DNA from: Rhizobium sp. Q54
GTDB lineage: Bacteria; Pseudomonadota; Alphaproteobacteria; Reyranellales; Reyranellaceae
Direction: 5' to 3'
Assembly: GCA_945903635.1 (NCBI GenBank)
Contig: CAMDOT010000041.1
Span: forward strand, 1-32,000
DNA length: 32,000 nt
Shown here one piece after another: positions 5,508 to 30,117 of this stretch (position 1 is its first letter; the number at the start of each line of letters is the position of its first letter). The notes below the pieces were generated by a model. That model was not told the origin of the DNA. It searched no databases and was given only the letters and a program-made list of their open reading frames with translations. The position numbers and the translations under genes were made by a program.

Positions 5508-5542
5508 GTTCAATCCGTCCTTGCTTCTTCCGAGTACAATGC

Positions 5543-6574: not shown

Positions 6575-6598
6575 GTCTCCGCCACGCCGCATCGCCGT

Positions 6599-8787: not shown

Positions 8788-9321
8788 CTAGCGCTTGCTC
8801 TTGGCGCGTTCGATGGCTTCGGAGATGAGGCGACGCGCCTCTTCGACATCGCCCCAGCCCTGCAGCTTCACCCACTTGCCGGGCTCGAGATCCTTGTAGT
8901 GGACGAAGAAGTGCTCGATCTGCTGGCGGGTGATCTCGGGCAGGTCGGTGATGGTCTTCACGTGGACGTAGCGCTGCGTCACCTTGGAGGACGGCACGGC
9001 GATGATCTTCTCGTCGCCGCCGCCGTCATCCTCCATGCGCAACACGCCGATCGGGCGCACGTTGATCACCGCGCCGGGAATGATCGGGCGCGTGTTGGCG
9101 ACCAGAACGTCGATCGGGTCGCCATCGTCGCTGAGCGTGTGCGGCACGAAGCCGTAATTGCCGGGATAGCGCATCGGCGTGTAGAGGAAGCGGTCGACGA
9201 CCAGCGTGCCCGCCGCCTTGTCCATCTCGTACTTGATCGGCTCGCCCCCGATCGCAACCTCGATGATGGTGTTCACGTCTTCAGGCGGCCGGTAGCCGAT
9301 GGCGATGGCATCGAGGTTCAT
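8788..9321 (-). CDS. ppa: Inorganic pyrophosphatase (family I)
   Basis: Unmistakable family I PPase text: [80 protein letters not shown] 9321 (MNLDAIAIG...) gives the canonical ~177 aa; the track start at 9354 adds 11 aa. Confidence 0.97.
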
Positions 9322-11791: not shown

Positions 11792-12163
11792 CTAGCGCGG
11801 ACTGCCGAGGGCAAATCCGATGGCGCACATCGCCAGCGCCATGTAGGCAGCAACGCGGGCGTGGCTGAAATAGACGTCGGCCAAGGCGCCGCCGATCATG
11901 GTCTGCAAACGCTCGCGCGGCAGCGCCGGTGCATCCTCGATCATCAGCCAGACTTCGGTGTGGCGATAGTTGCGCGTGCGCGCTGTCCACCCCTTCCAGA
12001 ACAGTACCAGTGCGGCGATCAGTACGAACACTGACCCGGAGCGGACGGCGATCCACGGCTCGCCGGAAAAGCCCACCATGGCCGTCACGATCGCCATCAG
12101 GGCGAAGCCACAGCCGCGCCGCACCGACAGCTCGGCGTAGCGCCTGATGTCGTCGTAGGTCAT
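11792..12163 (-). CDS. Hypothetical small integral membrane protein (123 aa)
   Basis: ORF with GC-rich third positions and 3-4 hydrophobic segments (GFALMAIVTAMVGF, VFVLIAALVLFW, AAYMALAMCAIGFAL). I recognise no family. Confidence 0.55.
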   Translation of the reverse strand: MTYDDIRRYAELSVRRGCGFALMAIVTAMVGFSGEPWIAVRSGSVFVLIAALVLFWKGWTARTRNYRHTEVWLMIEDAPALPRERLQTMIGGALADVYFSHARVAAYMALAMCAIGFALGSPR

Positions 12164-12274
12164 GGCGCGACGATAGCGCGCGGGCCGTCTTCGACCAATG
12201 TCGCGTTGCCGCCGCCCAGCAATCGATTTAGCGTGCTTGCGTAAAAACTACATAAAGATTCGGGGGAAATACGC

Positions 12275-12568
12275 ATGCGTGGCTTCAGGATGTTGGTGAT
12301 CGCAGGGCTGGCTGGACTGGCACTTGGCGCCTGCGGCAAATCTTCGAATCAGGACCAGCTCGCCTACGAGGTCTGCCTGGCCTCGGCGAAGAAGGACGCC
12401 AGGGTCACCGGCGCAGCCTTCGCGACCCTCGAACAATCCAAGATCACCGGCTCCACTGGCGAGGAAGAGATGCGGGTCAACATTCCCTACGAGCTGGACG
12501 GCAAGAAGGCGCTGTTCCAGTGCATCGCCCAAAAACAACCCGACGGAACCTTCAAGGTCATCTTCTAG
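12275..12568 (+). CDS. Probable lipoprotein (97 aa), function unknown
   Basis: The N-terminus MRGFRMLVIAGLAGLALGAC has a lipobox-like LGAC followed by GKSSNQ. A GGGGGAAA ribosome-binding site lies upstream. The mature part is hydrophilic. Confidence 0.65.
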   Translation: MRGFRMLVIAGLAGLALGACGKSSNQDQLAYEVCLASAKKDARVTGAAFATLEQSKITGSTGEEEMRVNIPYELDGKKALFQCIAQKQPDGTFKVIF

Positions 12569-12604
12569 AAGGCCATCTTCCAGACGGCCGTATTCTAGAG
12601 GGGC
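12560..12604 (+). repeat. Three tandem 15-nt units spanning the lipoprotein stop codon
   Basis: The units are ATCTTCTAGAAGGCC (12560), ATCTTCCAGACGGCC (12575) and GTATTCTAGAGGGGC (12590). Units 1 and 2 match at 13/15 positions, units 1 and 3 at 11/15. The period is 5 codons. TAG is in frame in units 1 and 3, with CAG at the equivalent position in unit 2. Confidence 0.7.
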
Positions 12605-12607
12605 GCC

Positions 12608-12919
12608 TCAGCCCAGCAGGTGACGGAGCGCCGGCAAGGCGAGCAAGGCCGCCCCGGCGAGCCAGATGAGCGTGGCGGCAGTGCTGCCCTGCCCACGCTC
12701 CGTCAGGCGCTCGTAGAGCGCCGCAGGAACGCCCGAGATCAGCAGCGTCGCGGAGGCGACCAGTAGCGAGCTGAAGAACAGGACCCAGCCAACCGAACGG
12801 GGGAAGACCTCAGGCATCAGGACAGCCGCGACCGGCACGGCGATGGCGAGGAAGGGTGAGAACAGGCCGTTCAGGATGCTGATGCCGACCACGGCGAAAA
12901 CAAGGAGATTGCGGTCCAT
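12608..12919 (-). CDS. Hypothetical small integral membrane protein (103 aa)
   Basis: This is the C-terminal part of track ORF 12608..13222. The convincing protein starts at ATG 12919 (MDRNLLVFAVVGISILNGLFSPFLAIAVPVAAVLM...). It has three hydrophobic segments. The start lies 5 nt after the upstream gene's stop. Confidence 0.6.
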   Translation of the reverse strand: MDRNLLVFAVVGISILNGLFSPFLAIAVPVAAVLMPEVFPRSVGWVLFFSSLLVASATLLISGVPAALYERLTERGQGSTAATLIWLAGAALLALPALRHLLG

Positions 12920-12924
12920 TGCGC

Positions 12925-13242
12925 TCAGCCCGCCACCGGCGCCCGCGGCATCAGCCCGAGCTGGTACAGCACCATGAACAGCACCACCCGAAGTGCTGCG
13001 ACCCAGAAGGCCGCCACCGGGGCGGTCATGATCGGCGGTATGGCCGAGGGCGTGACGTAGGTCACCGGGCGGTAGATCCACTCGGTCAGCCAGCGGAACG
13101 AGCGGTAGATGTAGTTCGGGCTGTCCGGCGGCAGGAAGAAGCTCAGGAAGAAGCGGCCGAACAGGCAGTAGAAGACCAGCGACAAGAAATAGTTGGGGAT
13201 GTGGAAATACCAGTAGCTCCACCAGATGTCCTGAGATCCCAC
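12925..13242 (-). CDS. Small integral membrane protein, possibly YggT family (105 aa)
   Basis: The GTG start at 13242 lies 10 nt after AGGAGG. The sequence is rich in aromatic residues. The central segment ...NYIYRSFRWLTEWIYRPVTYVTPSAIPP... resembles the YGGT-family l..lTeP.l.P.r..iP motif. The family call is tentative. Confidence 0.5.
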   Translation of the reverse strand: MGSQDIWWSYWYFHIPNYFLSLVFYCLFGRFFLSFFLPPDSPNYIYRSFRWLTEWIYRPVTYVTPSAIPPIMTAPVAAFWVAALRVVLFMVLYQLGLMPRAPVAG

Positions 13243-13336: not shown

Positions 13337-15142
13337 CTAGACGTGGGACACCACGGCGCCCCCGGGCGTGCGGATCGAGTCCACGAAGGCCTGCATCTCC
13401 TTCGAGGGTTCGGGAGTCATGAGACTCACCACGTAGGTCACGGCGAATGCGACCGGCAAACCGAACACGGCCGAGGAGATGTTGCGGATACCCCACCACA
13501 GGTCGGTTCCGAACATCGCCTTGAAATCGGCCGGCCAGTAGCGGGTCATCACCAGGTAGAAGAGGCAGACGCCGAAGCCGCTGATCATGCCGGAGATCGC
13601 GCCGATCTTGGTCGTGCGCTTCCACCAGATGCCGAGCACCAGCGGGGCGAACAGGCCGGCCGCGGCCAGCGAGAACGCCCACGCCACCATTTGGATGATG
13701 CCCGATGGCCGCGTGCCGGCCACCGCCGCCGCGACGATCGCGACTCCGACCAGCAGGCCACGCGCGACGAGCAACCGGCGGGCCGTCGAGGCCTTGGGGT
13801 CGATCATCTTGTAGTAGACGTCGTGGCTGAGCGCGTTGGCGATGGCAAGCAGCAGACCGTCGGCGGTGGAGAGCGCCGCGGCGAGACCGCCGGCGGCCAC
13901 CAGGCCCGACACCACGTACGGCAGGCCGGCAATTTCCGGCATCGACAGCACGATGATGTCCTGGTTGATGATGAACTCCGACAGCTGAAGGATGCCGTCG
14001 CTGTTGCCGTCCTTGATGGTCAGCAAGCCGCCGACCTGGGACCAGTTCTGGACCCACGCCGGGAGGCTGGCGATCGGCTGGCCGATCACGTTCTGGTAGA
14101 CCTCGAGCTTCGCGAAGGCGGCGTAGGCCGGCGCCGTGAAGTAGAGGAGGAAGATGAAGAAGATCGACCAGGCGACCGAGGTGCGCGCTTCGCGAACGCT
14201 GGGCGTCGTGAAGTAGCGCATCAGGATGTGCGGCAGCGAGGCCGTTCCGATCATCAGACAGAGCACCAGGGCCCAGAAGTTGTTGAACTCTGTCCAGCTG
14301 AACTGGCCCTTGACGTCGGTGAAGCCATCCGTGAAGTGCTTCACGACGCCGAGCTTGGTTTCGAGCTGGGCGATCTGCTCCAGTGCCGCGCCATAGGTCA
14401 GTTCGGGGATCGGGATTCCGTACATCTTGGTCGACAACCAGACCACCGGCACGAGGTAGGAGATGATCAGGATGACGTACTGGGCCACCTGGGTCCAAGT
14501 CACCGCCCGCATGCCACCCAGCATCGAGCACACCAGAATGCCGAGCAGACCGACGAAGATGGCGACCTCGAAGGGAATGCCGAGGAAGCGCGAGGTGATG
14601 ATGCCGATGCCGAAGCACTGCGCGACGATGTAGGTGAATGACGCACAGAACAGCACGACCACGCCGCACAGCCGTGCACCGTTGCCCTCGTAGCGCGTGC
14701 CGAGGAAGTCGGGCACGGTGAACTGGCCGAACTTGCGCAGGTACGGCGCCAGAAGGATGCCGACCAGCACGTAGCCACCGGTCCAGCCCAGTACGTAACC
14801 CAGCGCGTTGAAGCCGCCGAGATAGATGCCGCCCGCCATCGAGATGAAGGAGGCAGCGCTCATCCAGTCGGCACCGGTCGCCATGCCGTTGTACAGCGCC
14901 GGCACCTTGCGGCCGGCGACGTAGTATTCTGACAGGTCCATGGTTCGCGACAGGATGCCGATGTAGGCGTAAACGCCGATCGTCAGGATCACGAAGCAGT
15001 AACCGATGACCTTGTTCGGCATTCCCATCTGCTCGAAAACACCGAGGGCCAACGTGAAGACGATGAAGCCGCCGGTGTAGCCAAGATAGATCTTGCCGAG
15101 ATTGCCGAGGAAGCCGCCGCCGGCGGCCTTGGAGTCAGCCAT
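13337..15142 (-). CDS. Sodium:solute symporter (SSS family), VC_2705-type large subunit, likely monocarboxylate uptake
   Basis: 601-aa polytopic ORF immediately (17 nt) downstream of a DUF4212 gene. SSS-family text is present: YYVAGRKVPALYNGMATGADWMSAASFISMAGGIY, and the actP-like organisation. This pairing defines the VC_2705 subfamily. Confidence 0.9.
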   Translation of the reverse strand: MADSKAAGGGFLGNLGKIYLGYTGGFIVFTLALGVFEQMGMPNKVIGYCFVILTIGVYAYIGILSRTMDLSEYYVAGRKVPALYNGMATGADWMSAASFISMAGGIYLGGFNALGYVLGWTGGYVLVGILLAPYLRKFGQFTVPDFLGTRYEGNGARLCGVVVLFCASFTYIVAQCFGIGIITSRFLGIPFEVAIFVGLLGILVCSMLGGMRAVTWTQVAQYVILIISYLVPVVWLSTKMYGIPIPELTYGAALEQIAQLETKLGVVKHFTDGFTDVKGQFSWTEFNNFWALVLCLMIGTASLPHILMRYFTTPSVREARTSVAWSIFFIFLLYFTAPAYAAFAKLEVYQNVIGQPIASLPAWVQNWSQVGGLLTIKDGNSDGILQLSEFIINQDIIVLSMPEIAGLPYVVSGLVAAGGLAAALSTADGLLLAIANALSHDVYYKMIDPKASTARRLLVARGLLVGVAIVAAAVAGTRPSGIIQMVAWAFSLAAAGLFAPLVLGIWWKRTTKIGAISGMISGFGVCLFYLVMTRYWPADFKAMFGTDLWWGIRNISSAVFGLPVAFAVTYVVSLMTPEPSKEMQAFVDSIRTPGGAVVSHV

Positions 15143-15159: not shown

Positions 15160-15426
15160 TCAGTCTTCCTGGACGCCAAATTCTTCGTCGATCTTGTTCT
15201 GGGCGATCGCATTCCAGACGCACAGGACCACGAAGGCGATCAATGAGCCCTGGGCCGCCATGTAGAAGCCGAGCGGAAAACCCAAGAACTTGATGGTGTT
15301 GAGTTGGATCGCGAACAGCGGGATGACGAAGCTGAAGAGGATCCACAAGGCGAAGATGATCCACATCAGCCGCGAGGTCTTGCTCCAGTATTTCTGCCTC
15401 TGTGCAGCATCGAATTGCTCAGCCAT
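15160..15426 (-). CDS. DUF4212 protein (putative solute:sodium symporter small subunit)
   Basis: 88-aa two-TM ORF: MAEQFDAAQRQKYWSKTSRLMWIIFALWILFSFVIPLFA...LGFPLGFYMAAQGSLIAFVVLCVWNAIAQNKID. This is the characteristic sequence and position for DUF4212. GAGGAG lies 9 nt upstream of the ATG. Confidence 0.9.
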   Translation of the reverse strand: MAEQFDAAQRQKYWSKTSRLMWIIFALWILFSFVIPLFAIQLNTIKFLGFPLGFYMAAQGSLIAFVVLCVWNAIAQNKIDEEFGVQED

Positions 15427-15652
15427 GCCCGTTGCTCCTCTTCAATCGCTCGTTGTGCAGCGGTGTGGGGGCGTGCATCCACGCGCCGGAACGACCGGTG
15501 TGGTTATGCGATTTGTGGACTTGCAGCACATGCTCTGCTTTGTCCTCCCCGTGGGCGCCGTGACACGACGCTCCTAGCTTCTTTATTTGTAGAGAGTACG
15601 GTGTGCCCCGCCACCGCCACAATCAGACCAAAGTCGAAGGCCTGACCTCAAG

Positions 15653-16261
15653 ATGTTGTCTTTCATCAAAGCGTTTCTGCCCAAGCCGAAGATCCGCAGC
15701 CTTGCTGCGCTGCAACAATTCCTCGATGGTGAGGCGGCTTACCTTGCTCAACGCTCGGTAGTCGACTTCGTGCGCAACGAACTCGGCAGCCTGAGCGCCC
15801 AAGCCTTCGCCGACCCGCGTTTCCAGGTCAAGATGACGGTGTCCCGCTGGGACGGGTTCGCCGCCATATTGGCCGATATGATCGGTCTTACACATGCGCA
15901 CCTGCTCGCCGCCGGCGTGCCGCGCGCGGCGCTCGACACTCACTTCGGCAATCTCTACGCCACCATCCTTGCCGGCCACCCGCCTCCCGATCACCGTCCC
16001 CAAGGGTGGGACCCCGAGATCGCTGCACTGCAAACACGCTTGGCCACCCGGCCCGTCGGCCCTGTCAATCCACAGGCCGATGCCACGGCGACCGGCTCCA
16101 TGGTCTTCGACACCCTTCCCTTCGTGCCGCGCGATCCGGTCGAGAGCCGCACGGTGCTCGCGGCCGCCTTCGCTTTCGGATTGATCGCCTTCAACGATCG
16201 GCTGAGGAGGCTGCTGATGGTGGCACCCCTCCACGAAGAACTCGTCGCTTCGAGGCAATGA
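15653..16261 (+). CDS. Hypothetical protein (202 aa), no recognisable family; first gene of the exonuclease/nucleotidyltransferase operon
   Basis: Long ORF with coding-like third-position GC. Its stop overlaps the next gene's start (ATGA at 16258-16261), implying translational coupling. The overlapping minus-strand ORFs are arginine/proline-rich shadow frames. Confidence 0.6.
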   Translation: MLSFIKAFLPKPKIRSLAALQQFLDGEAAYLAQRSVVDFVRNELGSLSAQAFADPRFQVKMTVSRWDGFAAILADMIGLTHAHLLAAGVPRAALDTHFGNLYATILAGHPPPDHRPQGWDPEIAALQTRLATRPVGPVNPQADATATGSMVFDTLPFVPRDPVESRTVLAAAFAFGLIAFNDRLRRLLMVAPLHEELVASRQ

Positions 16262-16920
16262 CCATTGCCGATCTCTTCGGCCGATACCTGCGTCGCACGG
16301 CGCCACATGGCCGCTGGAGCGGCCCCGCCCATACACCGCTCGAACGCCTGCCGCTGGTGGCGATCGATTGCGAGACAACGGGTCTCGATCCCAGGCGGGA
16401 TCGCATCGTTTCCTTCGCGGCGATCCGCATCGACGAGGGCCTGCGCGTAGCCGCCCGGCCTGCGCTCGATCTCCTGATCGACCCCGGCGTTGCCATCCCG
16501 GCCCGCGCCACGGCAATCCACGGCATCGACCGCGCGCAATTGGCCGGGGCTCCGTCCTTTGCCGAGGCTTTCGGGCACATTGTGGCGTGCCTCGAGGGCT
16601 CGGTCGTGGTCGGTCACCACGTCGGCTTCGATGTCGCCATCATCGGCCGCGAAGCGGCACGCGCACGGCGGTCCTGGCACGAGCCGCCGCATTTCGATAC
16701 CGCGAACCTGGCAGCGGCCCTCGGTCATCCGGCGGCGCACGTCGACCTCGCCGAATTGCTCAGCCATCTGGGTCTCGAACCCGGCGGGCACCGCCACAGC
16801 GCCGCGGGCGACGCGCGTATGGCGGCCGATCTGTTCGTCGCCTTGGCTCACCGCCTGATCGGCCGGGGCCATGGCACCTATGGCGGGGTGGCCGCCTTCC
16901 ATCGCGCGCCGCGCCGGTGA
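16258..16920 (+). CDS. DEDDh-type 3'-5' exonuclease (DNA polymerase III epsilon-like / RNase T family)
   Basis: Exo I VAIDCETTGLD, Exo II VVVGHHVGFDVAII, Exo III HSAAGDARMAADLF. Start chosen at ATG 16258 (MTIADLF...); the track ORF start at 16006 would overlap the upstream gene by 250 nt. Confidence 0.85.
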   Translation: MTIADLFGRYLRRTAPHGRWSGPAHTPLERLPLVAIDCETTGLDPRRDRIVSFAAIRIDEGLRVAARPALDLLIDPGVAIPARATAIHGIDRAQLAGAPSFAEAFGHIVACLEGSVVVGHHVGFDVAIIGREAARARRSWHEPPHFDTANLAAALGHPAAHVDLAELLSHLGLEPGGHRHSAAGDARMAADLFVALAHRLIGRGHGTYGGVAAFHRAPRR

Positions 16921-18385
16921 CACCGTGGATACGACCGCCCTCGAGCGTCTCGACTCGTTCCCCTACCGGCATCGCGTCAGCGAGCTGATGACGGCGCCGA
17001 TCGTCACGATCGATCCAGATCGGCCGGTCGCCGAGGCGACGCGCCTGATGAGCGAGCGGCGCATCAGCTCGGTGATCGTCCTCGATGCCGACCGGCGATT
17101 GCACGGCATCCTGACCGAGCGCGACGTGCTGCGCCTAGTCGCGGCCGGACCCGACAGACTCGCGGATCCGATCTCGGCGGCGATGACTACGCCCGTTCAC
17201 GCCATCGAAGCCGATGCGCCGATCTACCGGGCGCTCGCCCGCATGGCGCGCCTCGACGTGCGGCATCTGCCGGTCGTCGACGACGACAACCGCCCGATCG
17301 GCATGCTGACATCGAGCGCGCTCCTCAAGCAGCGCGCCTCTCTTGCCCTCACGCTGGGCGACGAGATCGCGCTGGCGCCCGACGGGCGCGCCCTTCGCGT
17401 GCTCCACGACCGGCTCCCGGCCCTGGTCCGCGCCCTTCGCAGCGAGGACGTGAGCGCGACGCAGGCGTCGTCCGTCGTTGCCGGCATTACGCGCGACCTC
17501 ACGGCGCGCGCCGGCGAGTTGGCGCTGGCCGAAATGAAATCGGCGGGGCAAGGCGAGCCGCCCGCCCCCTGGTGCCTGCTGGTGCTGGGGTCGGCCGGCC
17601 GCGGAGAATCGCTGCTGGCGCCAGACCAAGACAATGCGCTGATCCACGAAGGCGCCACCGAGGACGATGCCTGGTTCGCCGCCTTCGCCGAACGCCTCAA
17701 CCGGCTGCTCGACGAAGCCGGCGTGCCCTACTGCTCTGGCGGCGTGATGGCCAAGAACCCATCGTATCGCCATTCGCTCGCAGGCTGGCAGGCCCAGGTC
17801 GACGCGTGGGTCGCCCGGCCACAGCCGGAGGCGGTGCTGGGCGCCGACATTTTCTACGACTTCGCCGCGGTGCTGGGCACCCGTCGCCTCGCCGGCGTGC
17901 TCCGCCAGCATGCCACGCGCGCCGCCGGACACTCCCCCACCTTCCTCCACCAACTCGCTGCGGCAACCGAAGATGTTCCGCGGGCCACCGATCTGCTGGG
18001 TCGTCTGCGCACGCGTGAAGGCCGCATCGATCTCAAGCGATACGGGCTGTTTCCGATCGTGACTGCCGCGCGCGTCGTGGCTCTCGCTTGGGGATCGACC
18101 GCGACCGCGACGGATGCGCGCCTCGCCGAAGCGGCGACAAAAGGTGCATTCCCGGAGGATGCCGCGCGGTCGCTGGCCGAAGCGCGCGGCGTCATCGTCG
18201 AGACAATCCTCGACCAGCAACTCGAGGACGTCGCAGCCGGTCGCATCCCCGACAATCGGGTCGATCCCAGGCGGTTGGGCCGACGCGCCACTTCGCGACT
18301 GCGAGAAGCGCTCGCCACTTCCGCTGAGACGTCGGAGCTCGTTCACACGGCGCTGAGCAGCCGGCCGATCACGTCGTCTCCTTGA
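16871..18385 (+). CDS. CBS-pair + DUF294-type putative nucleotidyltransferase (with DUF294_C-like substrate-binding domain)
   Basis: Two CBS-like modules are present (VSELMTAPIVTIDPDRPVAEATRLMSERRISSVIVLD...; AAMTTPVHAIEADAPIYRALARMARLDVRHLPVVDD). They are followed by the polymerase-beta-fold motif LLVLGSAGRGESLLAPDQDNALIH and a helical C-terminal domain. The start is uncertain: ATG 16871 or 16880 overlap the exonuclease gene, while an in-frame GTG 16925 lies 5 nt after its stop. Confidence 0.8.
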   Translation: MAPMAGWPPSIARRAGDTVDTTALERLDSFPYRHRVSELMTAPIVTIDPDRPVAEATRLMSERRISSVIVLDADRRLHGILTERDVLRLVAAGPDRLADPISAAMTTPVHAIEADAPIYRALARMARLDVRHLPVVDDDNRPIGMLTSSALLKQRASLALTLGDEIALAPDGRALRVLHDRLPALVRALRSEDVSATQASSVVAGITRDLTARAGELALAEMKSAGQGEPPAPWCLLVLGSAGRGESLLAPDQDNALIHEGATEDDAWFAAFAERLNRLLDEAGVPYCSGGVMAKNPSYRHSLAGWQAQVDAWVARPQPEAVLGADIFYDFAAVLGTRRLAGVLRQHATRAAGHSPTFLHQLAAATEDVPRATDLLGRLRTREGRIDLKRYGLFPIVTAARVVALAWGSTATATDARLAEAATKGAFPEDAARSLAEARGVIVETILDQQLEDVAAGRIPDNRVDPRRLGRRATSRLREALATSAETSELVHTALSSRPITSSP

Positions 18386-18417
18386 CCGCGCGCGGCGACG
18401 GGGTTCAAGCTTTCATC

Positions 18418-19059
18418 ATGGTGACCGCCCCCTCCTTCCTGATCGCCGACGACCACCCGATGGTTCGCGACGCGCTCGCGTCGGCGCTCGGCCAGGCGTT
18501 CCCTGGCGCCGGGATTGCCATGGCCGCAACGCTCGGCCAGGTCCAGGCGGCACTTGAACGTGAGCCCGAGACCGACGCCCTGCTGCTCGATCTCGACATG
18601 CCCGGCATGGAGGGACTCACGGGCATCGCGTTGTTGCGCTCCGAGTATCCGATCGTGCCGATCATCGTCGTGTCCGCCGCGCGCGAACCGATCGTGGTAC
18701 GACGCGCCTACGAATTCGGTGCGTCGGCCTACATCGACAAGTCGGCTTCCCTCGAGGAAATCGTTGGAACCGTGGGGGCGGTGCTCGAGGGCGAGATATT
18801 CGCCCCGCCCGAGGCGGAGCTCCCTGATTCATTCGCGCAACGTGCGGCCCAGCTCACGCCTCAGCAGTGGCGTGTGCTTGCTCTCATGATTCAGGGCGAC
18901 CAGAACAAGCAGATTGCCCACAAGCTCGGCGTCGGTGAGGCGACCGTGAAGGCGCATGTGACGGTGATCCTGCGCAAACTGGGCGTCCGCTCGCGCACCC
19001 AGGCCGTGATCGAGGCGCGCGGCCTCGCCATTCCCGCGGCCGAACCGGTCAGGCCGTAA
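18418..19059 (+). CDS. Response regulator, REC + LuxR/FixJ-type HTH (CrbR/ErdR-like)
   Basis: The receiver domain reads FLIADDHPMVRDAL...LLLDLDMPGMEGL...VVSA...KS. The C-terminal HTH reads LTPQQWRVLALMIQGDQNKQIAHKLGVGEATVKAHVTVILRKLGV. ATG 18418 is preferred over the track's TTG 18382. Confidence 0.9.
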   Translation: MVTAPSFLIADDHPMVRDALASALGQAFPGAGIAMAATLGQVQAALEREPETDALLLDLDMPGMEGLTGIALLRSEYPIVPIIVVSAAREPIVVRRAYEFGASAYIDKSASLEEIVGTVGAVLEGEIFAPPEAELPDSFAQRAAQLTPQQWRVLALMIQGDQNKQIAHKLGVGEATVKAHVTVILRKLGVRSRTQAVIEARGLAIPAAEPVRP

Positions 19060-22000
19060 GCCGGCCCCCTCCCATACCAGTGCCCGAGGCGCGCATCCGC
19101 AGGAGCGCGCGCAGCGACGCCGGCTTCACCGGCTTGTGCAGCAATTCGACGTTTCGTGTCCGCGCCCTGAGGCGCAGCGTCGGATCGCGATCGGCGGTGA
19201 TGAGGGCCGCCGGCACGTCACGGTCCCACGCCCGGCGGAGCGCGTCGACGACTTCCAGCCCGTCGGGCCCTTCGTCGAGATGCAGGTCGGCCAGCACCAG
19301 GTCGGGCAGCCGGCCGGCCCGCACGACCTGCTCCAGCGCCTCGGCGTGGGTCGCCGCGACCGCCACGCGACAGCCCCAACCACTGAGCAGGGTCGCCATC
19401 GCCTCGCGCACGCGGGCCTCGTTGTCGATGCAGAGCACGAAGCTCTCCGCGTCGATCGACAGCATGGGCTGCGGCACCGGCGGCGCGACGGACGCCGCCA
19501 CCACGGCGGGCACGCGCGGCACGATCACCGAGAAGGTCGAGCCGCGGCCCGGCGCCGAGGCGAGGCCGACCGGCAGGTCGAGCATGCGCGCGATGCGGTC
19601 GACGATGGCGAGGCCAAGGCCGAGGCCCCGCTCCTCGCGTGGCGCCTCATCCTCGGGCTGCAGCCGCACGAATTCGTCGAAGATGATGACCTGCTTGTCG
19701 GCCGCGATGCCGGGCCCGTTGTCCTTGACCTCGATTCGGAGCGCCTCGCCGCCGCCTTCTCCCACAACCCGACGACAGCCGAGAAGCACGCGGCCCGGCC
19801 TGCCTTCCGCACGGCCATAGCGCAGCGCATTCGACAGCAGGTTCTGCAGGATGCGGCGCAGGAAGGCCGGATCGGTCGAAACGAAGGCCCGCGTCGGCAC
19901 GACGACCAGTTCAATGCCGCGACGCGCGGCAAGCGGCGCGAAGGCGGTGCCCAGCGACTCGAACATCGGCTGCAGAGCGAACGGCCGCTTCTCGGGCTTG
20001 AAGGCACCGGCATCGAGCTTGGAGATGTCGAGCAACGCATCGAGCAGCGATTCGACGGCACCGAGGCTGGTGTCGATCTTGCCGCCGAGGTCGTTGCCGG
20101 GATCGCGATCGATCATCGCAGCCGTGAACAGGCGGGCGGCATGCAGCGGCTGCAGCAGGTCGTGGCTGGCGGCGGCGATGAACCGCGTCTTGCCGAGGTT
20201 GGCGGCCTCGGCCTCGGCGCGACTGGCTTCCAGTTCTGCCGTGCGCTCGATCACACGCTGTTCCAGCGTCTCCGTCGATTGCCGCAACTGGTGGTCGCTC
20301 TCGCGCAGCGCCTGGGCGGTGTGCACGCGCGCCGTCACGTCGTTGCAGGTCGCCACGAACCCGTCGCCGGGCAGCGGATCCAGACGAAGCTCGATGACGC
20401 GGCCCTCGCGGGTGGCGATCTCGTGTGTCTGTGGCGCTACAGGCCGGCGCAGCAGGGCCACGACGTCGGGCGTGGCCCCGAACTGCTGCGGCGCCGCGCC
20501 GACCGCAACCGCGTCGTCGTCGAGCGACAGCAGGGTCGTGAAACGGTCGTTGAAGATTTCCAGGCGGCCGTCGCGATCGAAGGCGGCGATGCCCATGCCG
20601 ACGTGATCGAGCGTGTTGCGCAGGATCTCGTAGTTGTAGCGGATCGCTTCCGAGGCCTCGTCGATCAGGGCGCGCGCGCTGCGCGGCAGCAGCCGGCCGC
20701 GGCGCCCGACGGCGGCGATGATGATGCGCGCCGATGCCGAACCCAGCGTTCCCGACAGCACACGCTCGGCCCGCACCAGCGCGACCTCGATCGACAGCCG
20801 ATCGCCGGAGAGAGCGCGCAGGGCCCGTTCGGAACCGACGAAGCGGGCCAGGAGTTCGCGCAGCTCGTCGATGCGCGCGGCAGCGGCCGGCGCCTGCCGT
20901 TCCGGCTGCTCCGGCTCGGCGCCGAGGACAAAGGAGCCGGCCTGCTCGACGTCCCGGGCGATCGGCCGGGCCAGCAGCGATACGCCGACCAGCAGCAGGG
21001 TGTTGACGACGATGCACACCACGAACCCCTGCCCCACCGCATCGAGGTCGGACAGGGGCGACGGAAGGTAGGGGCTGAGCGGCGGCGCATGGCCGGCGCC
21101 CACGGTCTGGCGCAGGGTCGGCAGCAGCAGCGCGTAGAGCCAGACGATGAAACCACCGGCCAGGCCCGCCACCACCCCGTAGCGATGGGCGCCACGCCAG
21201 TAGAGGCCGAGCACGACACCGGGCGCCAGGTTGGCCACGGCGCAGAACGAGATCAGGCCGATCGAGGCGAGCGGCAGGTAGCCCGAGATGATGCGCTCGT
21301 AGGCGTAGCCCGCCATGAGAATGAGCACGACGGCGGCGCGGCGCACGAACACCACCAGCGGCCCCATTTCCCGCGCGGCACCTGCCTGCCGCCGCAGCAG
21401 ATAGGGCATGACCAGTTCGTTGCCGATCATGCCCGACAGCGCCATGCAGGCCACAATCACCATCGAGGTTGCGGCGGACAGGCCGCCGATGAACACGAAC
21501 GCCGACAGCCAGCTCTCGCCGTTGGCCAGCGGCAACTGCAGCACATAGAGATCGGGACTGATCTGCGGCCCGAGCAGCAGCAGGCCTGCCGCTGCAATCG
21601 GCATGACGAAAATATTGATCAGCACAAGATAGATCGGGAACAGCCAGCGCGCGGTCTTGAGGCTGGCGGGATGGCCGTGCTCGACCACAGCAACATGGAA
21701 CTGTCGCGGCAGGCAGAGGAACGCCATCGCCGACAGGAGCGACATCACGATCCAGTTGAGCGGCGTGCCCTCGCGCGTGACGCGCTCGGCGATGGCGGGC
21801 GCCGCGCCCAGCCGCGCCATCATGTCGGCGGGCCCATCGAACAGCACGAACAGCACGAACGGCCCCACTGTCAGCAGGGCCAATAGCTTGACCACCGATT
21901 CGAAGGCGATGGCCAGCATCATGCCGCGGTGCTGCTCCGAGGCGGAGACGTTGCGCACGCCGAACAGGATGGTGAACACGGCCATCAGGGCGGCCACGAT

Positions 22001-22492
22001 TAGCGAGGTGTCGGTGTGCACGACGCCGCCCGACACTCCGGGGATCGGCTCGGCGACGGTCTGGAACGAAGACGACACCGCCTGGAGCTGCAGGGCGATA
22101 TAGGGCAGCACGCCCACGGTGGCGAACAGCGTGGCTGTGACGCCGACGGCGCGGCTCTTGCCGTAGCGGGAGGCCAGGAAATCGGCGATCGACGTGACGT
22201 TGTGCTGCTTGGCCACGCGCACCATCTTGCGCAGCATCGGGTAGCCTAGGACCACCACGATGACCGGGCCGGTATAGATGAAGAGGAAGTCGATGCCGCT
22301 GGTGGCTGCACGGCCGACCGCCCCATAGAAGGTCCACGAGGTACAGTAGATGGCCAGCGACAGGCCATAGACGGCCGGCGCCACCGAACTGGCCGACCAG
22401 TCCCGGGCATATCGGTCGCCAAAATAGGCCACGGCGAAGAGCAGGCCGAGGTAGCCCAGCGACAGGGCAAGGACGGTTGGTTCCGCCAGCAT
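19049..22492 (-). CDS. Hybrid sensor histidine kinase with an N-terminal solute:sodium-symporter-like membrane domain, PAS, HisKA/HATPase and C-terminal receiver (CrbS/MxtR-like)
   Basis: 1147 aa. The first ~480 aa are polytopic and SSS-like (YFGDRYA...TSWTFYGAVGRAATSGIDFLFIYTGP, about 13 TM segments). Then follow a PAS segment (LRNTLDHVGMGIAAFDRDGRLEIFNDRF), the H-box FIAAASHDLLQPLHAARLF, the ATPase G-boxes (VKDNGPGI, GLGLGLAIV...GRGSTF) and a receiver (LCIDNEARVRE...DLVLADLHLDEGPDGLEV...HKP). Confidence 0.92.
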   Translation of the reverse strand: MLAEPTVLALSLGYLGLLFAVAYFGDRYARDWSASSVAPAVYGLSLAIYCTSWTFYGAVGRAATSGIDFLFIYTGPVIVVVLGYPMLRKMVRVAKQHNVTSIADFLASRYGKSRAVGVTATLFATVGVLPYIALQLQAVSSSFQTVAEPIPGVSGGVVHTDTSLIVAALMAVFTILFGVRNVSASEQHRGMMLAIAFESVVKLLALLTVGPFVLFVLFDGPADMMARLGAAPAIAERVTREGTPLNWIVMSLLSAMAFLCLPRQFHVAVVEHGHPASLKTARWLFPIYLVLINIFVMPIAAAGLLLLGPQISPDLYVLQLPLANGESWLSAFVFIGGLSAATSMVIVACMALSGMIGNELVMPYLLRRQAGAAREMGPLVVFVRRAAVVLILMAGYAYERIISGYLPLASIGLISFCAVANLAPGVVLGLYWRGAHRYGVVAGLAGGFIVWLYALLLPTLRQTVGAGHAPPLSPYLPSPLSDLDAVGQGFVVCIVVNTLLLVGVSLLARPIARDVEQAGSFVLGAEPEQPERQAPAAAARIDELRELLARFVGSERALRALSGDRLSIEVALVRAERVLSGTLGSASARIIIAAVGRRGRLLPRSARALIDEASEAIRYNYEILRNTLDHVGMGIAAFDRDGRLEIFNDRFTTLLSLDDDAVAVGAAPQQFGATPDVVALLRRPVAPQTHEIATREGRVIELRLDPLPGDGFVATCNDVTARVHTAQALRESDHQLRQSTETLEQRVIERTAELEASRAEAEAANLGKTRFIAAASHDLLQPLHAARLFTAAMIDRDPGNDLGGKIDTSLGAVESLLDALLDISKLDAGAFKPEKRPFALQPMFESLGTAFAPLAARRGIELVVVPTRAFVSTDPAFLRRILQNLLSNALRYGRAEGRPGRVLLGCRRVVGEGGGEALRIEVKDNGPGIAADKQVIIFDEFVRLQPEDEAPREERGLGLGLAIVDRIARMLDLPVGLASAPGRGSTFSVIVPRVPAVVAASVAPPVPQPMLSIDAESFVLCIDNEARVREAMATLLSGWGCRVAVAATHAEALEQVVRAGRLPDLVLADLHLDEGPDGLEVVDALRRAWDRDVPAALITADRDPTLRLRARTRNVELLHKPVKPASLRALLRMRASGTGMGGGRLTA

Positions 22493-22531
22493 GCGTGCGC
22501 GTTTCTCCCCATGTGCGCTTCTTGGGCGTTA

Positions 22532-22559
22532 TTGAACCCGTTCGACGGGGTCGCTACAA
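22532..22559 (+). promoter_or_regulatory. Candidate sigma-70-type promoter for ettA that would give a leaderless or near-leaderless mRNA
   Basis: TTGAAC (22532-22537), a 16-nt spacer, then CTACAA (22554-22559), with the ettA ATG 7 nt downstream at 22567. No Shine-Dalgarno sequence is present in GCTCGCC. This rests on motif resemblance only. Confidence 0.3.
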
Positions 22560-22566
22560 GCTCGCC

Positions 22567-24243
<1,677 letters not shown>

Positions 24244-26653: not shown

Positions 26654-26778
26654 GTGTCGATCCCCCAATGGTGCGTTTAGTGAAAACGCGCTCCACCCGC
26701 TAAGGTTGCCGTTCCAGGGAACCTATTGGCTTGTCCGACGTTCAATCTTCCTTAAGGCACTTTCACTGTCAGGAGCGG

Positions 26779-29700: not shown

Positions 29701-30117
29701 ATCCCGGGCGGATCCGAACGAATCCTGGTCGTCGAGGACGAACCCCAGGTCCGGGCCAATGTCGTCCGGCAGTTACGAAGCCTCGGCTATTGGGTCGCCG
29801 AGGCGCCCGACGGTTCGGCCGGCGTCGCGGCCTTCGAAGCAGCATTGCTGCCCTACGACCTGTTGCTCAGCGATGTCGTCATGCCCGGCCCTCTGAGCGG
29901 CAAACTGCTGGCAGCCGAGGTAGCCCGACGCTGGCCAGTGACGAAAATTGTCTTCATGTCGGGCTTCACCGAAATTTCCAGCGTGCGCCACGAACGGCTT
30001 GACGAGGGCGCCCTCCTGCTCAGCAAGCCGTTCCGCAAGATCGATCTTGCCCGGATGATCCGGCTCACTCTCGATACCGCCGGCTCTCCCGCCGGCTTAA
30101 CGTCCAGCAACGCCTGA
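26779..30117 (+). CDS. Hybrid sensor histidine kinase: TM, periplasmic Cache-like domain, TM, three PAS domains, HisKA, HATPase, receiver
   Basis: Track ORF 26731..30117 has a TTG start. I prefer ATG 26779, which follows AGGAG; ATG 26839 is also possible. The periplasmic part contains the [12 protein letters not shown] Cache-type motif between the hydrophobic segments [20 protein letters not shown] and [23 protein letters not shown]. There are three PAS modules. H-box: [15 protein letters not shown]. ATPase: DEGAGIP...[13 protein letters not shown]. Receiver: [11 protein letters not shown]...[10 protein letters not shown]...SKPF. Confidence 0.9.
28183..28953 (+). repeat. Intragenic tandem duplication of a complete PAS module (period 387 bp / 129 codons) inside the hybrid kinase
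   Basis: Unit 1 (28183-28569) and unit 2 (28570-28953) both begin [23 protein letters not shown]. They stay colinear to ...[12 protein letters not shown], with about 16 amino-acid differences and one codion indel by my count. Many further nucleotide differences are silent third-position changes. Confidence 0.9.

What the first reader, a model, noticed from the sequence alone, without database searches (positions are those of the whole stretch)
15160..22492. Symporter-sensor two-component locus (CrbS/CrbR type) wired to an uncharacterised nucleotidyltransferase + exonuclease pair and an extra 202-aa protein
Seen: the DUF4212 small subunit and a 601-aa solute:sodium symporter (minus strand) diverge from a tightly packed plus-strand run. 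That run starts with a 202-aa protein (15653-16261) whose stop overlaps the next start (ATGA at 16258-16261). Next come a DEDDh 3'-5' exonuclease and a CBS-pair/DUF294-type nucleotidyltransferase that abuts or overlaps the exonuclease stop. The NTase keeps an intact polymerase-beta-fold motif (GSAGRGESLLAPDQD = G-S-x9-D-x-D). A REC-LuxR regulator then starts about 30 nt after the NTase stop. A 1147-aa hybrid kinase with a ~13-TM symporter-like sensor converges on the regulator. Established: a symporter-domain hybrid kinase plus a LuxR regulator is the CrbS/CrbR (Vibrio) or MxtR/ErdR (Pseudomonas) design that controls acetyl-CoA synthetase and acetate use. DUF294 and epsilon-like exonuclease genes are recurrent neighbours of VC_2705-type symporters, yet to my knowledge no biochemical role has been assigned to that pair. 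Inference: both enzymes keep their catalytic residues. A make-and-break nucleotide chemistry (protein nucleotidylylation, or a small nucleotide signal gated by adenylate sensing through the CBS pair) may therefore feed into the carboxylate-uptake switch. The 202-aa protein belongs to no family I recognise and could be the missing target or partner. No acs gene lies in the window.
Basis: partly seen in the sequence, partly recalled or inferred. Interest (0 to 1): 0.72.

Follow-up and report, generated by a model that had tools for sequence, protein, structure and literature searches.

The report
Carboxylate symporter locus with uncharacterised partner protein
This is an acetate/pyruvate-type sensor-regulator pair sitting beside a sodium-carboxylate symporter and the already reported, biochemically unsolved nucleotidyltransferase-exonuclease pair; the new part is a conserved 202-residue helical protein that always travels with the symporter.

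Summary
The window comes from a Reyranella-like alphaproteobacterium.

The kinase and regulator are of the CrbS/CrbR (MxtR/ErdR) design. The symporter is a VC_2705-type large subunit with a DUF4212 small subunit. The nucleotidyltransferase (CBS pair, DUF294, DUF294_C) and the DEDDh exonuclease keep their catalytic residues.

Much of this is already published. The DUF294/exonuclease operon is a direct ErdR target in Pseudomonas, it is cofit with DUF4212 symporters, and its chemistry was still called unclear in a 2026 preprint.

- The transferase model resembles GlnE.
- Exonuclease and transferase are fused into one protein in 88 of 120 related clusters.
- An ACTU-like palindrome (15623-15638) lies in the divergent intergenic region.
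- The 202-aa protein founds an unannotated family of about 188 clusters, with a confident all-helical model and no match in the PDB.
- That protein sat beside the symporter genes in all 23 distant loci, including loci without transferase or exonuclease.

So it is a symporter-set protein coupled to the exonuclease. Nothing shows it to be the transferase's target.

Verdict: a new variant of a known system, of moderate interest.

The parts
11792..12163 (-). 123-aa small hydrophobic protein (s123), the conserved third gene downstream of the symporter in alphaproteobacterial loci
   Evidence: tblastn finds it in the same position in L001, L002, L004, L006, L009, L012, L013, L023-L025, L064-L066 and L069. 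No Pfam family.
12608..12919 (-). 103-aa small membrane protein (s102), the second gene downstream of the symporter
   Evidence: Conserved next to s105 in alphaproteobacterial and Burkholderiales loci at 33-83% identity.
12925..13242 (-). 105-aa small membrane protein, weakly YGGT-like (s105), the first gene downstream of the symporter
   Evidence: PF02325 YGGT, E 3e-5, below the cut-off. Conserved in nearly all loci that hold p202. In Burkholderiales it diverges from p202.
13337..15142 (-). Large subunit of a VC_2705-family sodium/solute (monocarboxylate-type) symporter, 601 aa
   Evidence: TIGR03648 752.9 bits against a cut-off of 320.75; Pfam SSF E 2.8e-52. ActP and MctC models score far below their cut-offs.
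15160..15426 (-). DUF4212 small subunit of the symporter, 88 aa, two hydrophobic segments
   Evidence: PF13937 100.7 bits; TIGR03647 94.6 bits. Two hydrophobic segments.
15555..15571 (-). Conserved hairpin in the predicted 5' leader of the DUF4212-symporter mRNA
   Evidence: A 7-bp stem across 12 distinct clade sequences, with GC/AU and CG/UA/UG pair changes and no broken pair in six of the seven pairs. The U-G pairs would be C-A mismatches on the plus strand, so the stem is read on the minus strand. The invariant block GGGGAGGACA (plus-strand 15541-15550) lies next to it. Overall fold z-score is only -0.59. No Rfam match.
15623..15638 (.). Imperfect palindrome TCAGAC-CAAA-GTCGAA, the candidate binding site of the CrbR-like regulator (ACTU-like)
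   Evidence: The only match in the 32-kb window, against 0.29 expected by chance. Invariant in 13 clade loci. The core GACTTTGGTC also lies upstream of DUF4212 in the distant loci L005 and L006, where best scores of 13-14 of 14 arise in about 0.1% of shuffles. It has the half-sites and spacing of published ACTU sites such as TACGACTAAAGTCTAAA. Its centre lies about 44 bp upstream of a predicted minus-strand start behind a conserved TACTCT/TATCCT (inference).
15653..16261 (+). p202: a soluble all-helical protein of an unannotated family, first gene of the plus-strand operon
   Evidence: No Pfam, NCBIfam or PADLOC family. 188 clusters at 50% identity with E<=1e-3. AlphaFold2 model with pLDDT 96 and pTM 0.91, seven helices. 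Best Foldseek PDB hit E 0.19. No hydrophobic segment. Beside the symporter gene set in all 23 distant loci.
16258..16920 (+). DEDDh 3'-5' exonuclease, 220 aa, translationally coupled to p202 through an ATGA overlap
   Evidence: RNase_T E 1.2e-28. E39, D125, H180 and D185 are invariant and D37 is kept in at least 90% of 13 homologues. Best solved relatives are the PolC exonuclease domain (1e-44), DnaQ, DinG, Cas2-DEDDh and RNase T. All DnaQ equivalog cut-offs are missed.
16925..18385 (+). GlnE-like nucleotidyltransferase (CBS pair, DUF294, DUF294_C), 486 aa, with no cNMP-binding domain
   Evidence: Pfam. G222, S223, D234, D236 and D312 are invariant in 14 homologues down to 29% identity. AlphaFold2 model with pLDDT 85. 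The only non-CBS Foldseek hits among the 50 listed are the two E. coli GlnE domains, 3k7d_A and 1v4a (E about 9e-7, TM 0.47-0.48).
18418..19059 (+). REC plus LuxR/GerE response regulator, CrbR/ErdR-like
   Evidence: Response_reg and GerE. NF041830 ErdR is the best model at 188.9 bits, with NarL next at 93.5, but it stays below the 390-bit cut-off.
19049..22492 (-). Hybrid histidine kinase of CrbS/MxtR design: SLC5-like membrane domain, STAC-like block, PAS, HisKA, HATPase, REC. It converges on the regulator gene.
   Evidence: Pfam. The N-terminal 520 aa match VC_2705 symporters by hhalign at 95.6% probability over 429 columns. Solved chain 10ed_A, 'histidine kinase', matches residues 7-559 at E 8.6e-72. 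About 12-14 hydrophobic segments. Conserved STAC-like block. NahK/ErcS C-terminal model scores 393.5 bits against a cut-off of 400.

Best explanation
The locus is an alphaproteobacterial CrbS/CrbR-type carboxylate-sensing system placed next to the transporter it most likely controls.

Step 1, largely shown by homology. The hybrid kinase senses a short-chain monocarboxylate (acetate, pyruvate or propionate type) through its symporter-like membrane domain. It then phosphorylates the LuxR-type regulator.

Step 2, inferred from a conserved site. The regulator binds the imperfect palindrome at 15623-15638. From there it activates the divergent operon DUF4212, VC_2705 symporter and three small membrane proteins. 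That operon's mRNA carries a conserved structured leader.

Step 3. The plus-strand operon p202, exonuclease, transferase, regulator encodes a tuning module.
- Shown: the transferase and the DEDDh exonuclease act as one machine, because they are very often a single polypeptide.
- Shown: the transferase is GlnE-like in fold and is preceded by a CBS pair.
- Inferred: the transferase attaches a nucleotide to a protein target according to adenylate or energy state, and the exonuclease domain removes it. This parallels the transferase-plus-hydrolase layout of GlnD.
- Inferred: the result is a change in the expression or activity of the symporter.

Step 4, inferred. p202 is a soluble helical protein of the symporter gene set. 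It docks the exonuclease/transferase module to the transporter or to its product. It is a partner or adaptor, not an obligatory substrate.
For: Domain calls for all genes.

Kinase of SLC5/STAC type.

Literature on the system:
- The same convergent kinase/regulator layout is the acetate-essential CrbS/R of Sinorhizobium fredii (PMC9100948).
- CrbR acts through an inverted repeat (ACTU), whereas RpuR uses a direct repeat.
- PP_0354/PP_0353 are direct ErdR targets with pyruvate and propionate growth phenotypes.
- PA3232-PA3235 are co-induced.
- COG2905 is cofit with DUF4212 symporters and was suggested to be needed for symporter expression.

Palindrome: unique in the window, invariant in the clade, and shared with the distant loci L005 and L006.

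Enzymes:
- Catalytic residues invariant.
- GlnE is the only non-CBS structural neighbour among the 50 listed hits. This agrees with the published placement of DUF294_C beside the GlnD/GlnE C-terminal domains.
- Exonuclease-transferase fusions make up 88 of 120 clusters. One of them, L069, sits right after a p202 gene and beside the symporter.

p202:
- Always beside the symporter set.
- ATGA coupling to the exonuclease is kept in L001, L002, L064 and L065.
- One in-frame p202-exonuclease fusion in the same context, P0223 on L067.
- In six lineages the exonuclease carries two N-terminal hydrophobic segments, consistent with action at the membrane.
Against: - No acs or other regulon gene could be examined, and no transcript data exist for this organism.
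- The palindrome ends only 14 nt before the p202 start codon. It therefore cannot be a classical activator site for the p202 operon. The minus-strand promoter is predicted, not observed, and the consensus scan found no sigma-70 promoter.
- Most distant p202 loci lack the palindrome.
- The regulator misses the curated ErdR cut-off.
- Similarity to GlnE is at fold level only (TM about 0.48, 13-15% identity).
- No DEDDh enzyme is known, to my knowledge, to remove a nucleotide from a protein. The exonuclease's closest relatives all act on nucleic acids.
- p202 has no invariant Tyr, Ser or Thr, and its His-Arg loop is unrelated to the presence of the transferase.
- The p202-exonuclease fusion is a single metagenomic contig.
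- Deletion of the pair in P. putida gives only mild phenotypes.
Confidence: 0.45

Rival explanations
1. The module works on RNA. The transferase adds untemplated nucleotides to an RNA 3' end and the DEDDh exonuclease trims them. The RNA would be the symporter mRNA with its structured leader, or a small RNA. Transporter expression would then be set after transcription. p202 would be an RNA- or enzyme-binding accessory.
For: - The exonuclease's nearest solved relatives are all nucleic-acid 3'-5' exonucleases: PolC, DnaQ, DinG, Cas2-DEDDh and RNase T.
- A polymerase-beta-fold transferase fused to a 3'-5' exonuclease is also the layout of tailing-and-trimming or polymerase-and-proofreading enzymes.
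- The symporter leader holds a strand-specific covarying hairpin and an invariant block.
- Fitness data led others to propose that the pair is needed for symporter expression.
- Henriquez et al. speculated that the nuclease degrades mRNA.
Against: - The transferase's structural neighbours are the protein-modifying GlnE domains, not poly(A) polymerases or CCA-adding enzymes.
- DUF294_C belongs with the GlnD/GlnE substrate-binding domains.
- The leader is shown only for the Reyranella clade, and its overall fold is not unusually stable (z -0.59).
- No Rfam family matches.
Confidence: 0.22
2. p202 is only an accessory or assembly subunit of the multi-component symporter, together with DUF4212 and the small membrane proteins. 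It has no functional link to the transferase and exonuclease. Its place in their operon in this clade reflects co-regulation only.
For: - p202 sits beside the symporter set in all 23 distant loci.
- It is there in L005, L007 and L009, which have no transferase or exonuclease within about 10 kb.
- In Burkholderiales it lies between the symporter and s105/s102, on the opposite strand and apart from the exonuclease-transferase genes.
- It has no conserved residue of the kinds known to accept a nucleotide.
Against: - The ATGA overlap with the exonuclease is kept while p202 itself diverges to about 40% identity.
- p202 directly precedes the transferase, or the fused exonuclease-transferase, in other lineages.
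- One in-frame p202-exonuclease fusion exists.
- p202 is soluble, with no membrane segment.
Confidence: 0.22
3. The transferase makes a small nucleotide signal, such as a linear or cyclic oligonucleotide or a nucleotidylated metabolite. The exonuclease degrades it. p202 or the regulator would be the receptor.
For: - Intact polymerase-beta catalytic motif and intact DEDDh residues.
- The physical fusion of a maker and a breaker also fits signal turnover.
- A CBS pair could gate the synthesis.
Against: - No resemblance to cGAS/CD-NTase or other signal synthases appears among the 50 listed structural neighbours.
- No PADLOC signalling-system hit for the transferase or p202.
- p202 shows no known nucleotide-binding fold.
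Confidence: 0.06

Closest known systems
CrbS/CrbR (MxtR/ErdR) two-component systems of Vibrio, Pseudomonas and Sinorhizobium fredii
   Same: - The kinase has the same parts: SLC5-like domain, STAC-like block, PAS, kinase core and C-terminal REC.
- The partner regulator is LuxR-type.
- The kinase and regulator genes converge, as in S. fredii NGR_RS12300/12295.
- An inverted-repeat site has ACTU-like half-sites and spacing.
- The DUF294/exonuclease genes are associated with the system.
   Different: - The regulator lies inside the operon of the accessory genes.
- The system sits directly beside a VC_2705/DUF4212 symporter rather than actP or acs.
- The regulator scores below the curated ErdR cut-off.
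- Control of acs could not be tested.
PP_0354/PP_0353 of P. putida (PFLU5625; PA3233/PA3232): the DUF294 transferase and exonuclease operon of the ErdR regulon
   Same: - CBS pair, DUF294 and DUF294_C transferase next to a DEDDh exonuclease.
- Linked to a carboxylate symporter and to CrbS/R.
- Biochemistry unknown.
   Different: - Gene order here is exonuclease then transferase, the reverse of P. putida.
- The transferase has no cNMP-binding domain.
- The p202 gene precedes the pair and overlaps the exonuclease start.
VC_2705-family symporter with DUF4212 small subunit (TIGR03648/TIGR03647; Sama_1522/1523, Psest_0346/0347)
   Same: Both curated models are passed by a wide margin. The small subunit lies immediately upstream of the large one.
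   Different: Here the pair is part of a larger conserved set with s105, s102, s123 and p202. That set is not described in the papers I could read. The substrate is unknown; published relatives are important for growth on lactate or D-alanine.
GlnE and GlnD, the protein adenylyl- and uridylyl-transferases of nitrogen control
   Same: - Polymerase-beta-fold transferase with a helical substrate-binding domain.
- GlnE domains are the only non-CBS structural neighbours among the 50 listed hits.
- GlnD pairs the transferase with a separate hydrolytic removing domain.
   Different: - Sequence identity is only 13-15%.
- The sensor is a CBS pair, not ACT domains or PII.
- The putative removing enzyme is a DEDDh exonuclease, not an HD domain or a second transferase domain.
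- The target is unknown.
RpuS/RpuR with MctP of Sinorhizobium fredii
   Same: An alphaproteobacterial SLC5/STAC hybrid kinase and a LuxR regulator lie next to, and control, a monocarboxylate symporter operon that includes a small membrane subunit.
   Different: RpuR uses a direct repeat and forms an operon with RpuS. The transporter there is MctP with DUF3311. No transferase, exonuclease or p202 is reported.

Membership tests
CrbS/MxtR-type SLC5/STAC hybrid histidine kinase | N-terminal membrane domain of about 13 helices, homologous to SLC5/SSS symporters | tested here: met
   hhalign against VC_2705 symporters gives 95.6% probability over 429 columns. Solved chain 10ed_A matches at E 8.6e-72 over residues 7-559. 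A crude hydropathy count gives 12-14 hydrophobic segments. Pfam SSF itself gives no hit.
CrbS/MxtR-type SLC5/STAC hybrid histidine kinase | STAC domain between the membrane domain and PAS | tested here: inconclusive
   A conserved helical block (L..L..RF.G..RA ... G.ASAR ... DEAS) lies at the expected place in nine homologues. No STAC model was available to score it.
CrbS/MxtR-type SLC5/STAC hybrid histidine kinase | PAS, HisKA, HATPase and a C-terminal receiver domain (the receiver distinguishes it from CbrA) | tested here: met
   PAS_7, HisKA, HATPase_c and Response_reg at residues 1019-1131. The NahK/ErcS C-terminal model scores 393.5 bits against a cut-off of 400.
CrbR/ErdR response regulator | REC plus LuxR-type helix-turn-helix, and passing the curated ErdR model | tested here: not met
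   The architecture is met. NF041830 is the best model at 188.9 bits but stays below its 390-bit cut-off. This is an ErdR-like relative, not a curated ErdR.
CrbS/CrbR regulon | Control of acetyl-CoA synthetase and acetate use | not testable with these tools
   No acs gene lies in the window, and no whole genome or expression data were available.
CrbS/CrbR regulon | ACTU-type imperfect inverted repeat upstream of target genes | tested here: inconclusive
   TCAGACCAAAGTCGAA (15623-15638) shares GAC-N4-GTC and its flanks with four published ACTU sites. It is invariant in the clade. Binding was not tested, and the published logo was not available.
VC_2705 two-subunit sodium/solute symporter | Large subunit passes TIGR03648, and a TIGR03647/DUF4212 small subunit lies immediately upstream | tested here: met
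   752.9 bits against 320.75, and 94.6 bits against 26.05. The two genes are 17 nt apart on the minus strand.
COG2905-type signal protein (cNMP-binding, CBS, DUF294 transferase) | DUF294 and DUF294_C with an intact G-S...D-x-D motif | tested here: met
   144.7 and 105.5 bits. The motif is invariant in 14 homologues.
COG2905-type signal protein (cNMP-binding, CBS, DUF294 transferase) | N-terminal cyclic-nucleotide-binding domain | tested here: not met
   No cNMP_binding hit. The protein begins about 18 residues before the first CBS domain. All 120 closest clusters also list only CBS, DUF294 and DUF294_C.
DEDDh 3'-5' exonuclease | Exo I (D-x-E), Exo II (D) and Exo III (H-x4-D) residues | tested here: met
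   D37/E39, D125 and H180/D185 are invariant or nearly so in 13 homologues. RNase_T E 1.2e-28.
DNA polymerase III epsilon (DnaQ proofreading subunit) | Passing a curated DnaQ equivalog model | tested here: not met
   All DnaQ and epsilon models score 50-93 bits against cut-offs of 186-245.
GlnE/GlnD protein nucleotidyltransferases | Family-level sequence membership and a known protein substrate | tested here: not met
   Similarity is at fold level only (TM 0.47-0.48, 13-15% identity). The profile search of PDB sequences returned only CBS-containing chains among the 60 matches shown. The substrate is unknown.
Known anti-phage defence systems | Match of the transferase or p202 to a PADLOC model | tested here: not met
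   Only generic DEDDh models hit the exonuclease. There were no hits for the transferase or p202.

The most novel reading that the evidence does not exclude
p202 is the physical link between a secondary transporter and a fused-type writer/eraser enzyme. The CBS-gated, GlnE-like transferase and its DEDDh partner would be recruited by p202 to the VC_2705 symporter complex. There they would reversibly nucleotidylylate a component: p202 itself, a symporter loop, or a small subunit. Carboxylate uptake would then be switched by cellular energy state. This would be the first case of transporter control by nucleotidylylation, and the first DEDDh enzyme acting as a protein de-nucleotidylase.
Probability: 0.15. 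Interest if true: 0.8.

Novelty: new variant of a known kind. Interest (0 to 1): 0.5.

Why it matters
[quoted passage not shown] It is widespread next to carboxylate transporters. After about ten years of genetics it still has no known chemistry or target.

This locus and its relatives give three handles that the gammaproteobacterial models lack:
- A dedicated, well-folding partner protein (p202) that is co-inherited with the symporter.
- Natural exonuclease-transferase fusions, plus one p202-exonuclease fusion, which say the parts work together.
- Membrane-anchored exonuclease variants, which point to the membrane as the site of action.

Together these turn 'what does the pair do?' into a short list of binding and modification assays. 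They also define a conserved five- to six-gene symporter set that is not described in the papers I could search.

Tried and rejected
- p202 as a free-standing STAC domain: rejected (hhalign probability 0.2%).
- p202 as a diverged DUF294_C or HEPN-like domain: rejected (probability 0.4%; no Foldseek hit).
- p202 in any curated family or solved structure: none found.
- His114 in the conserved P-x-P-x-H-R-P-x-G-W loop as a modification site tied to the transferase: not supported. His is present where the transferase is absent (L005, L009) and absent where it is present (L066, L067, L069).
- More p202-exonuclease fusions: a search with the fusion P0223 found none. P0415-P0417, with 79% coverage, are exonucleases with two hydrophobic segments and a PAS-like region, not fusions. 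P0155 is a frameshifted read-through.
- The palindrome as a marker of other regulon genes: an 18-mer scan of metagenomes gave 38 hits. Eleven were assigned to the orthologous locus. Most of the rest lie inside coding sequence of unrelated GC content, which points to chance. L045, which is intergenic and upstream of a crotonase-like gene, was left unresolved.
- A small upstream ORF in the leader: rejected as a conserved peptide, because indels that are not multiples of three break the frame.
- Rfam: no match.
- Sigma-70 and terminator scan of the intergenic region: nothing found.
- A first genome scan with the 40-sequence alignment failed for lack of a conserved stretch.

Full report
**1. What is there.**
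On the minus strand lie an 88-aa DUF4212 protein (15160-15426) and a 601-aa symporter (13337-15142). These pass the curated models for the small and large subunits of VC_2705-family sodium/solute symporters by wide margins (94.6 against 26 bits; 752.9 against 320.75 bits). Across a 226-bp gap the plus strand carries four tightly packed genes:
- a 202-aa ORF (15653-16261, here called p202);
- a 220-aa RNase_T/DEDDh exonuclease whose ATG overlaps the p202 stop (ATGA at 16258-16261);
- a transferase with two CBS domains, DUF294 and DUF294_C;
- a REC-GerE regulator.

A 1147-aa hybrid kinase (19049-22492) converges on the regulator. Homologues show that the transferase starts at GTG 16925, 4 nt after the exonuclease stop, giving 486 aa. 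The regulator starts at ATG 18418. The motif is G-S-x10-D-x-D, not x9. No acs gene lies in the window. Names attached to the closest homologues place the window in or near Reyranella, in the Rhodospirillales.

**2. The two-component system.**
Pfam's SSF model does not hit the kinase N-terminus. A profile of nine kinase N-termini does align with VC_2705 symporters over 429 columns at 95.6% probability. The kinase also matches a solved 606-residue 'histidine kinase' chain, 10ed_A, over residues 7-559 at E 8.6e-72. About 12-14 hydrophobic segments are present. A conserved helical block sits where STAC should be. PAS_7, HisKA, HATPase_c and a C-terminal receiver follow. The regulator's best curated model by far is ErdR, at 188.9 bits with NarL next at 93.5, but it misses the 390-bit cut-off. 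Sinorhizobium fredii has an acetate-essential CrbS/R pair with the same convergent layout. I therefore read this as a CrbS/CrbR-design system. It is an ErdR relative rather than a curated ErdR.

**3. A candidate regulator site and a structured leader.**
The intergenic region contains TCAGAC-CAAA-GTCGAA (15623-15638). It has the GAC-N4-GTC core and the flanks of the published ACTU sites of P. fluorescens CrbR, such as TACGACTAAAGTCTAAA. It is the only match in the window, against 0.29 expected. It is invariant in 13 clade loci in which p202 itself varies from 71 to 97% identity. The identical core GACTTTGGTC also lies upstream of DUF4212 in two very distant loci, L005 and L006. Scores that high occur in about 0.1% of shuffles. 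Most other distant loci lack it.

The site ends 14 nt before the p202 ATG, so it cannot be a classical activator site for that operon. On the minus strand its centre lies about 44 bp upstream of a start predicted behind a conserved TACTCT/TATCCT. That matches the -52 to -36 position reported for ACTU. This last step is inference, and the consensus scan found no sigma-70 promoter.

The predicted leader of about 160 nt carries a 7-bp hairpin (15555-15571) with compensatory changes (GC/AU; CG/UA/UG). The U-G pairs make it readable only on the minus strand. An invariant GGGGAGGACA block lies next to it. Overall folding energy is unremarkable (z -0.59), and no Rfam family matches.

**4. The enzyme pair.**
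Across 14 transferases down to 29% identity, G222, S223, D234, D236 and D312 are invariant. Across 13 exonucleases, E39, D125, H180 and D185 are invariant and D37 nearly so. No solved DUF294 structure was found by sequence.

An AlphaFold2 model of the transferase (pLDDT 85, pTM 0.83) finds CBS pairs first. Among the 50 listed hits, the only matches outside CBS-pair proteins are the adenylylation and deadenylylation domains of E. coli GlnE: 3k7d_A at E 8.8e-7 and TM 0.48 over 443 columns, and 1v4a at E 9.3e-7 and TM 0.47. This fits the published grouping of DUF294_C with the GlnD/GlnE C-terminal domains.

The exonuclease's nearest solved relatives are nucleic-acid enzymes: the PolC exonuclease domain at 1e-44, then DnaQ, DinG, Cas2-DEDDh and RNase T. 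It fails every DnaQ equivalog cut-off.

A search seeded with an exonuclease-containing protein showed that 88 of the 120 best clusters are single polypeptides of about 700 aa. Each carries RNase_T, CBS, DUF294 and DUF294_C, and they come from many Alpha- and Betaproteobacteria. The two enzymes therefore work as one unit. In six alphaproteobacterial loci the exonuclease instead carries two N-terminal hydrophobic segments and a weak PAS-like region. That points to action at the membrane. PADLOC gives no defence-system assignment.

**5. What was already known.**
- PFLU5625, a DUF294 protein, was placed in the CrbS/R regulon with an ACTU site in 2017, and protein nucleotidylation was suggested then.
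- PP_0354/PP_0353 form an operon bound by ErdR. The exonuclease mutant grows slowly on pyruvate, and both mutants grow slowly on propionate.
- PA3232-PA3235 are co-induced on propionate.
- Fitness data linked COG2905 to DUF4212 symporters, with the speculation that it is needed for symporter expression.
- A September 2026 preprint still calls the function of the pair unclear.

The association and the make-and-break hypothesis are not new.

**6. The 202-aa protein.**
It hits nothing in Pfam, NCBIfam or PADLOC, and neither do 40 diverse relatives. An exhaustive search finds 188 clusters at 50% identity with E<=1e-3. Almost all are 200-235 aa long and 22-59% identical. Every source name seen for them is 'hypothetical protein' or blank, apart from one 'uncharacterized membrane protein' label. 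The named sources are Reyranella, Ferrovibrio, Rhodospirillales and other Alphaproteobacteria, and one MAG labelled Deltaproteobacteria; Burkholderiales and other Betaproteobacteria appear in the genome scan.

The AlphaFold2 model is very confident (pLDDT 96, pTM 0.91) and all-helical, with seven helices. It has no hydrophobic segment. Foldseek finds no PDB neighbour: the best hit has E 0.19 and TM below 0.3. A profile search of PDB sequences finds nothing credible. It is not STAC and not DUF294_C-like.

**7. Genomic company of p202.**
A genome scan returned 23 distant loci at 28-37% identity. In 22 of them, DUF4212 and/or the VC_2705 symporter lie next to p202. In the last one, L017, the flanking s105/s102 genes show the same context.
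- In Alphaproteobacteria p202 diverges from DUF4212.
- In Burkholderiales it sits on the opposite strand between the symporter and two small membrane-protein genes.
- Those genes (window 12925-13242 and 12608-12919, plus 11792-12163 in Alphaproteobacteria) are conserved with the set.
- The transferase and exonuclease are nearby in 16 of the 23 loci.
- L005, L007 and L009 have about 10 kb of flank on each side and lack both.

Where p202 precedes the free-standing short exonuclease, the ATGA overlap is kept in four loci (L001, L002, L064, L065) even though p202 has diverged to about 40% identity. In L064 the kinase is 85% identical, the regulator 83% and the transferase 63%. Elsewhere p202 directly precedes the transferase, or a fused exonuclease-transferase as in L069, where the p202 assignment has 99.9% probability.

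One 2.1-kb farmland contig, L067, encodes an in-frame p202-exonuclease fusion between DUF4212 and the transferase. It is a singleton, and a targeted search found no second case.

Against p202 being the transferase's substrate: it has no invariant Tyr, Ser or Thr. The His-Arg of its most conserved exposed loop is present where the transferase is absent and missing in three loci that have it.

**8. Reading.**
Most likely this is a CrbS/CrbR-type carboxylate sensor that activates the neighbouring multi-component symporter operon through the palindrome. The plus-strand operon then supplies a tuning module. That module is a CBS-gated, GlnE-like transferase working in one complex with a DEDDh exonuclease. 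p202 is a symporter-set protein that couples to the exonuclease.

My confidence in the separate steps:
- wiring of the system to the symporter, about 0.7;
- transferase and exonuclease acting as one machine, about 0.85;
- protein nucleotidylylation as the chemistry, about 0.4;
- p202 as an adaptor, about 0.35.

The main rivals are an RNA tailing-and-trimming role and p202 being only a transporter subunit. The first is favoured by the exonuclease's relatives and by the structured leader.

**9. Verdict.**
The system is a new variant of a known kind. The core design and the open question are published. Interest is moderate, at 0.5.

Noticed in passing
window 11792-13242 (minus strand): Three small hydrophobic-protein genes lie downstream of the symporter: 105 aa (weakly YGGT-like), 103 aa and 123 aa. 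They are conserved with the DUF4212/symporter/p202 set in Alphaproteobacteria. The first two are also conserved in Burkholderiales, where they diverge from p202. They may be further symporter subunits.
   Followed up: partly
window 15427-15590 (minus strand); hairpin 15555-15571; invariant block 15541-15550: The predicted 5' leader of the symporter mRNA is strongly conserved in the Reyranella clade. It holds a hairpin with compensatory changes that pairs only on the minus strand, and an invariant GGGGAGGACA block. No Rfam family matches, and overall folding energy is unremarkable.
   Followed up: partly
L004 10643-11980; L012, L013, L020, L022, L025 (exonuclease genes): In six alphaproteobacterial loci the DEDDh exonuclease has an N-terminal extension of about 230 aa, with two hydrophobic segments and a weak PAS-like region. 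These look like membrane-anchored exonucleases.
   Followed up: partly
P0428-P0526; L068, L069, L070: Single polypeptides of about 700 aa fuse RNase_T to CBS, DUF294 and DUF294_C, and they are common. They also occur away from symporters, for example beside an OpuA-type ABC transporter in Kaustia mangrovi and beside dnaX in a Burkholderiales MAG.
   Followed up: partly
L067 384-1643 (protein P0223): A single metagenomic contig encodes an in-frame p202-exonuclease fusion between DUF4212 and the transferase. No second example was found, so an assembly or frameshift artefact cannot be excluded.
   Followed up: yes
L045, near position 9056 after reorientation: An exact copy of the 18-mer ATCAGACCAAAGTCGAAG lies in an intergenic region of a 67% GC contig. 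It sits between a TRAP-type binding-protein gene with its terminator and a crotonase-like gene. It may be chance or another target of a related regulator.
   Followed up: no
window 22477-24243 (plus strand): An ABC-F (EttA-like) gene flanks the kinase. It keeps this position in L001, L002, L004 and L064, so the locus sits in a stable chromosomal neighbourhood.
   Followed up: no
window 4152-8227 (minus strand): Two UbiD-family decarboxylase genes (453 and 542 aa) flank a 360-aa ORF that has no Pfam family.
   Followed up: no
window 26731-30117 (plus strand): A second, unrelated hybrid histidine kinase of 1128 aa, with dCache, three PAS domains, the kinase core and a receiver.
   Followed up: no
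(L064 compared with the window): p202 evolves much faster than its neighbours. It is 39% identical where the kinase is 85%, the regulator 83%, the transferase 63% and the exonuclease 55% identical.
   Followed up: partly
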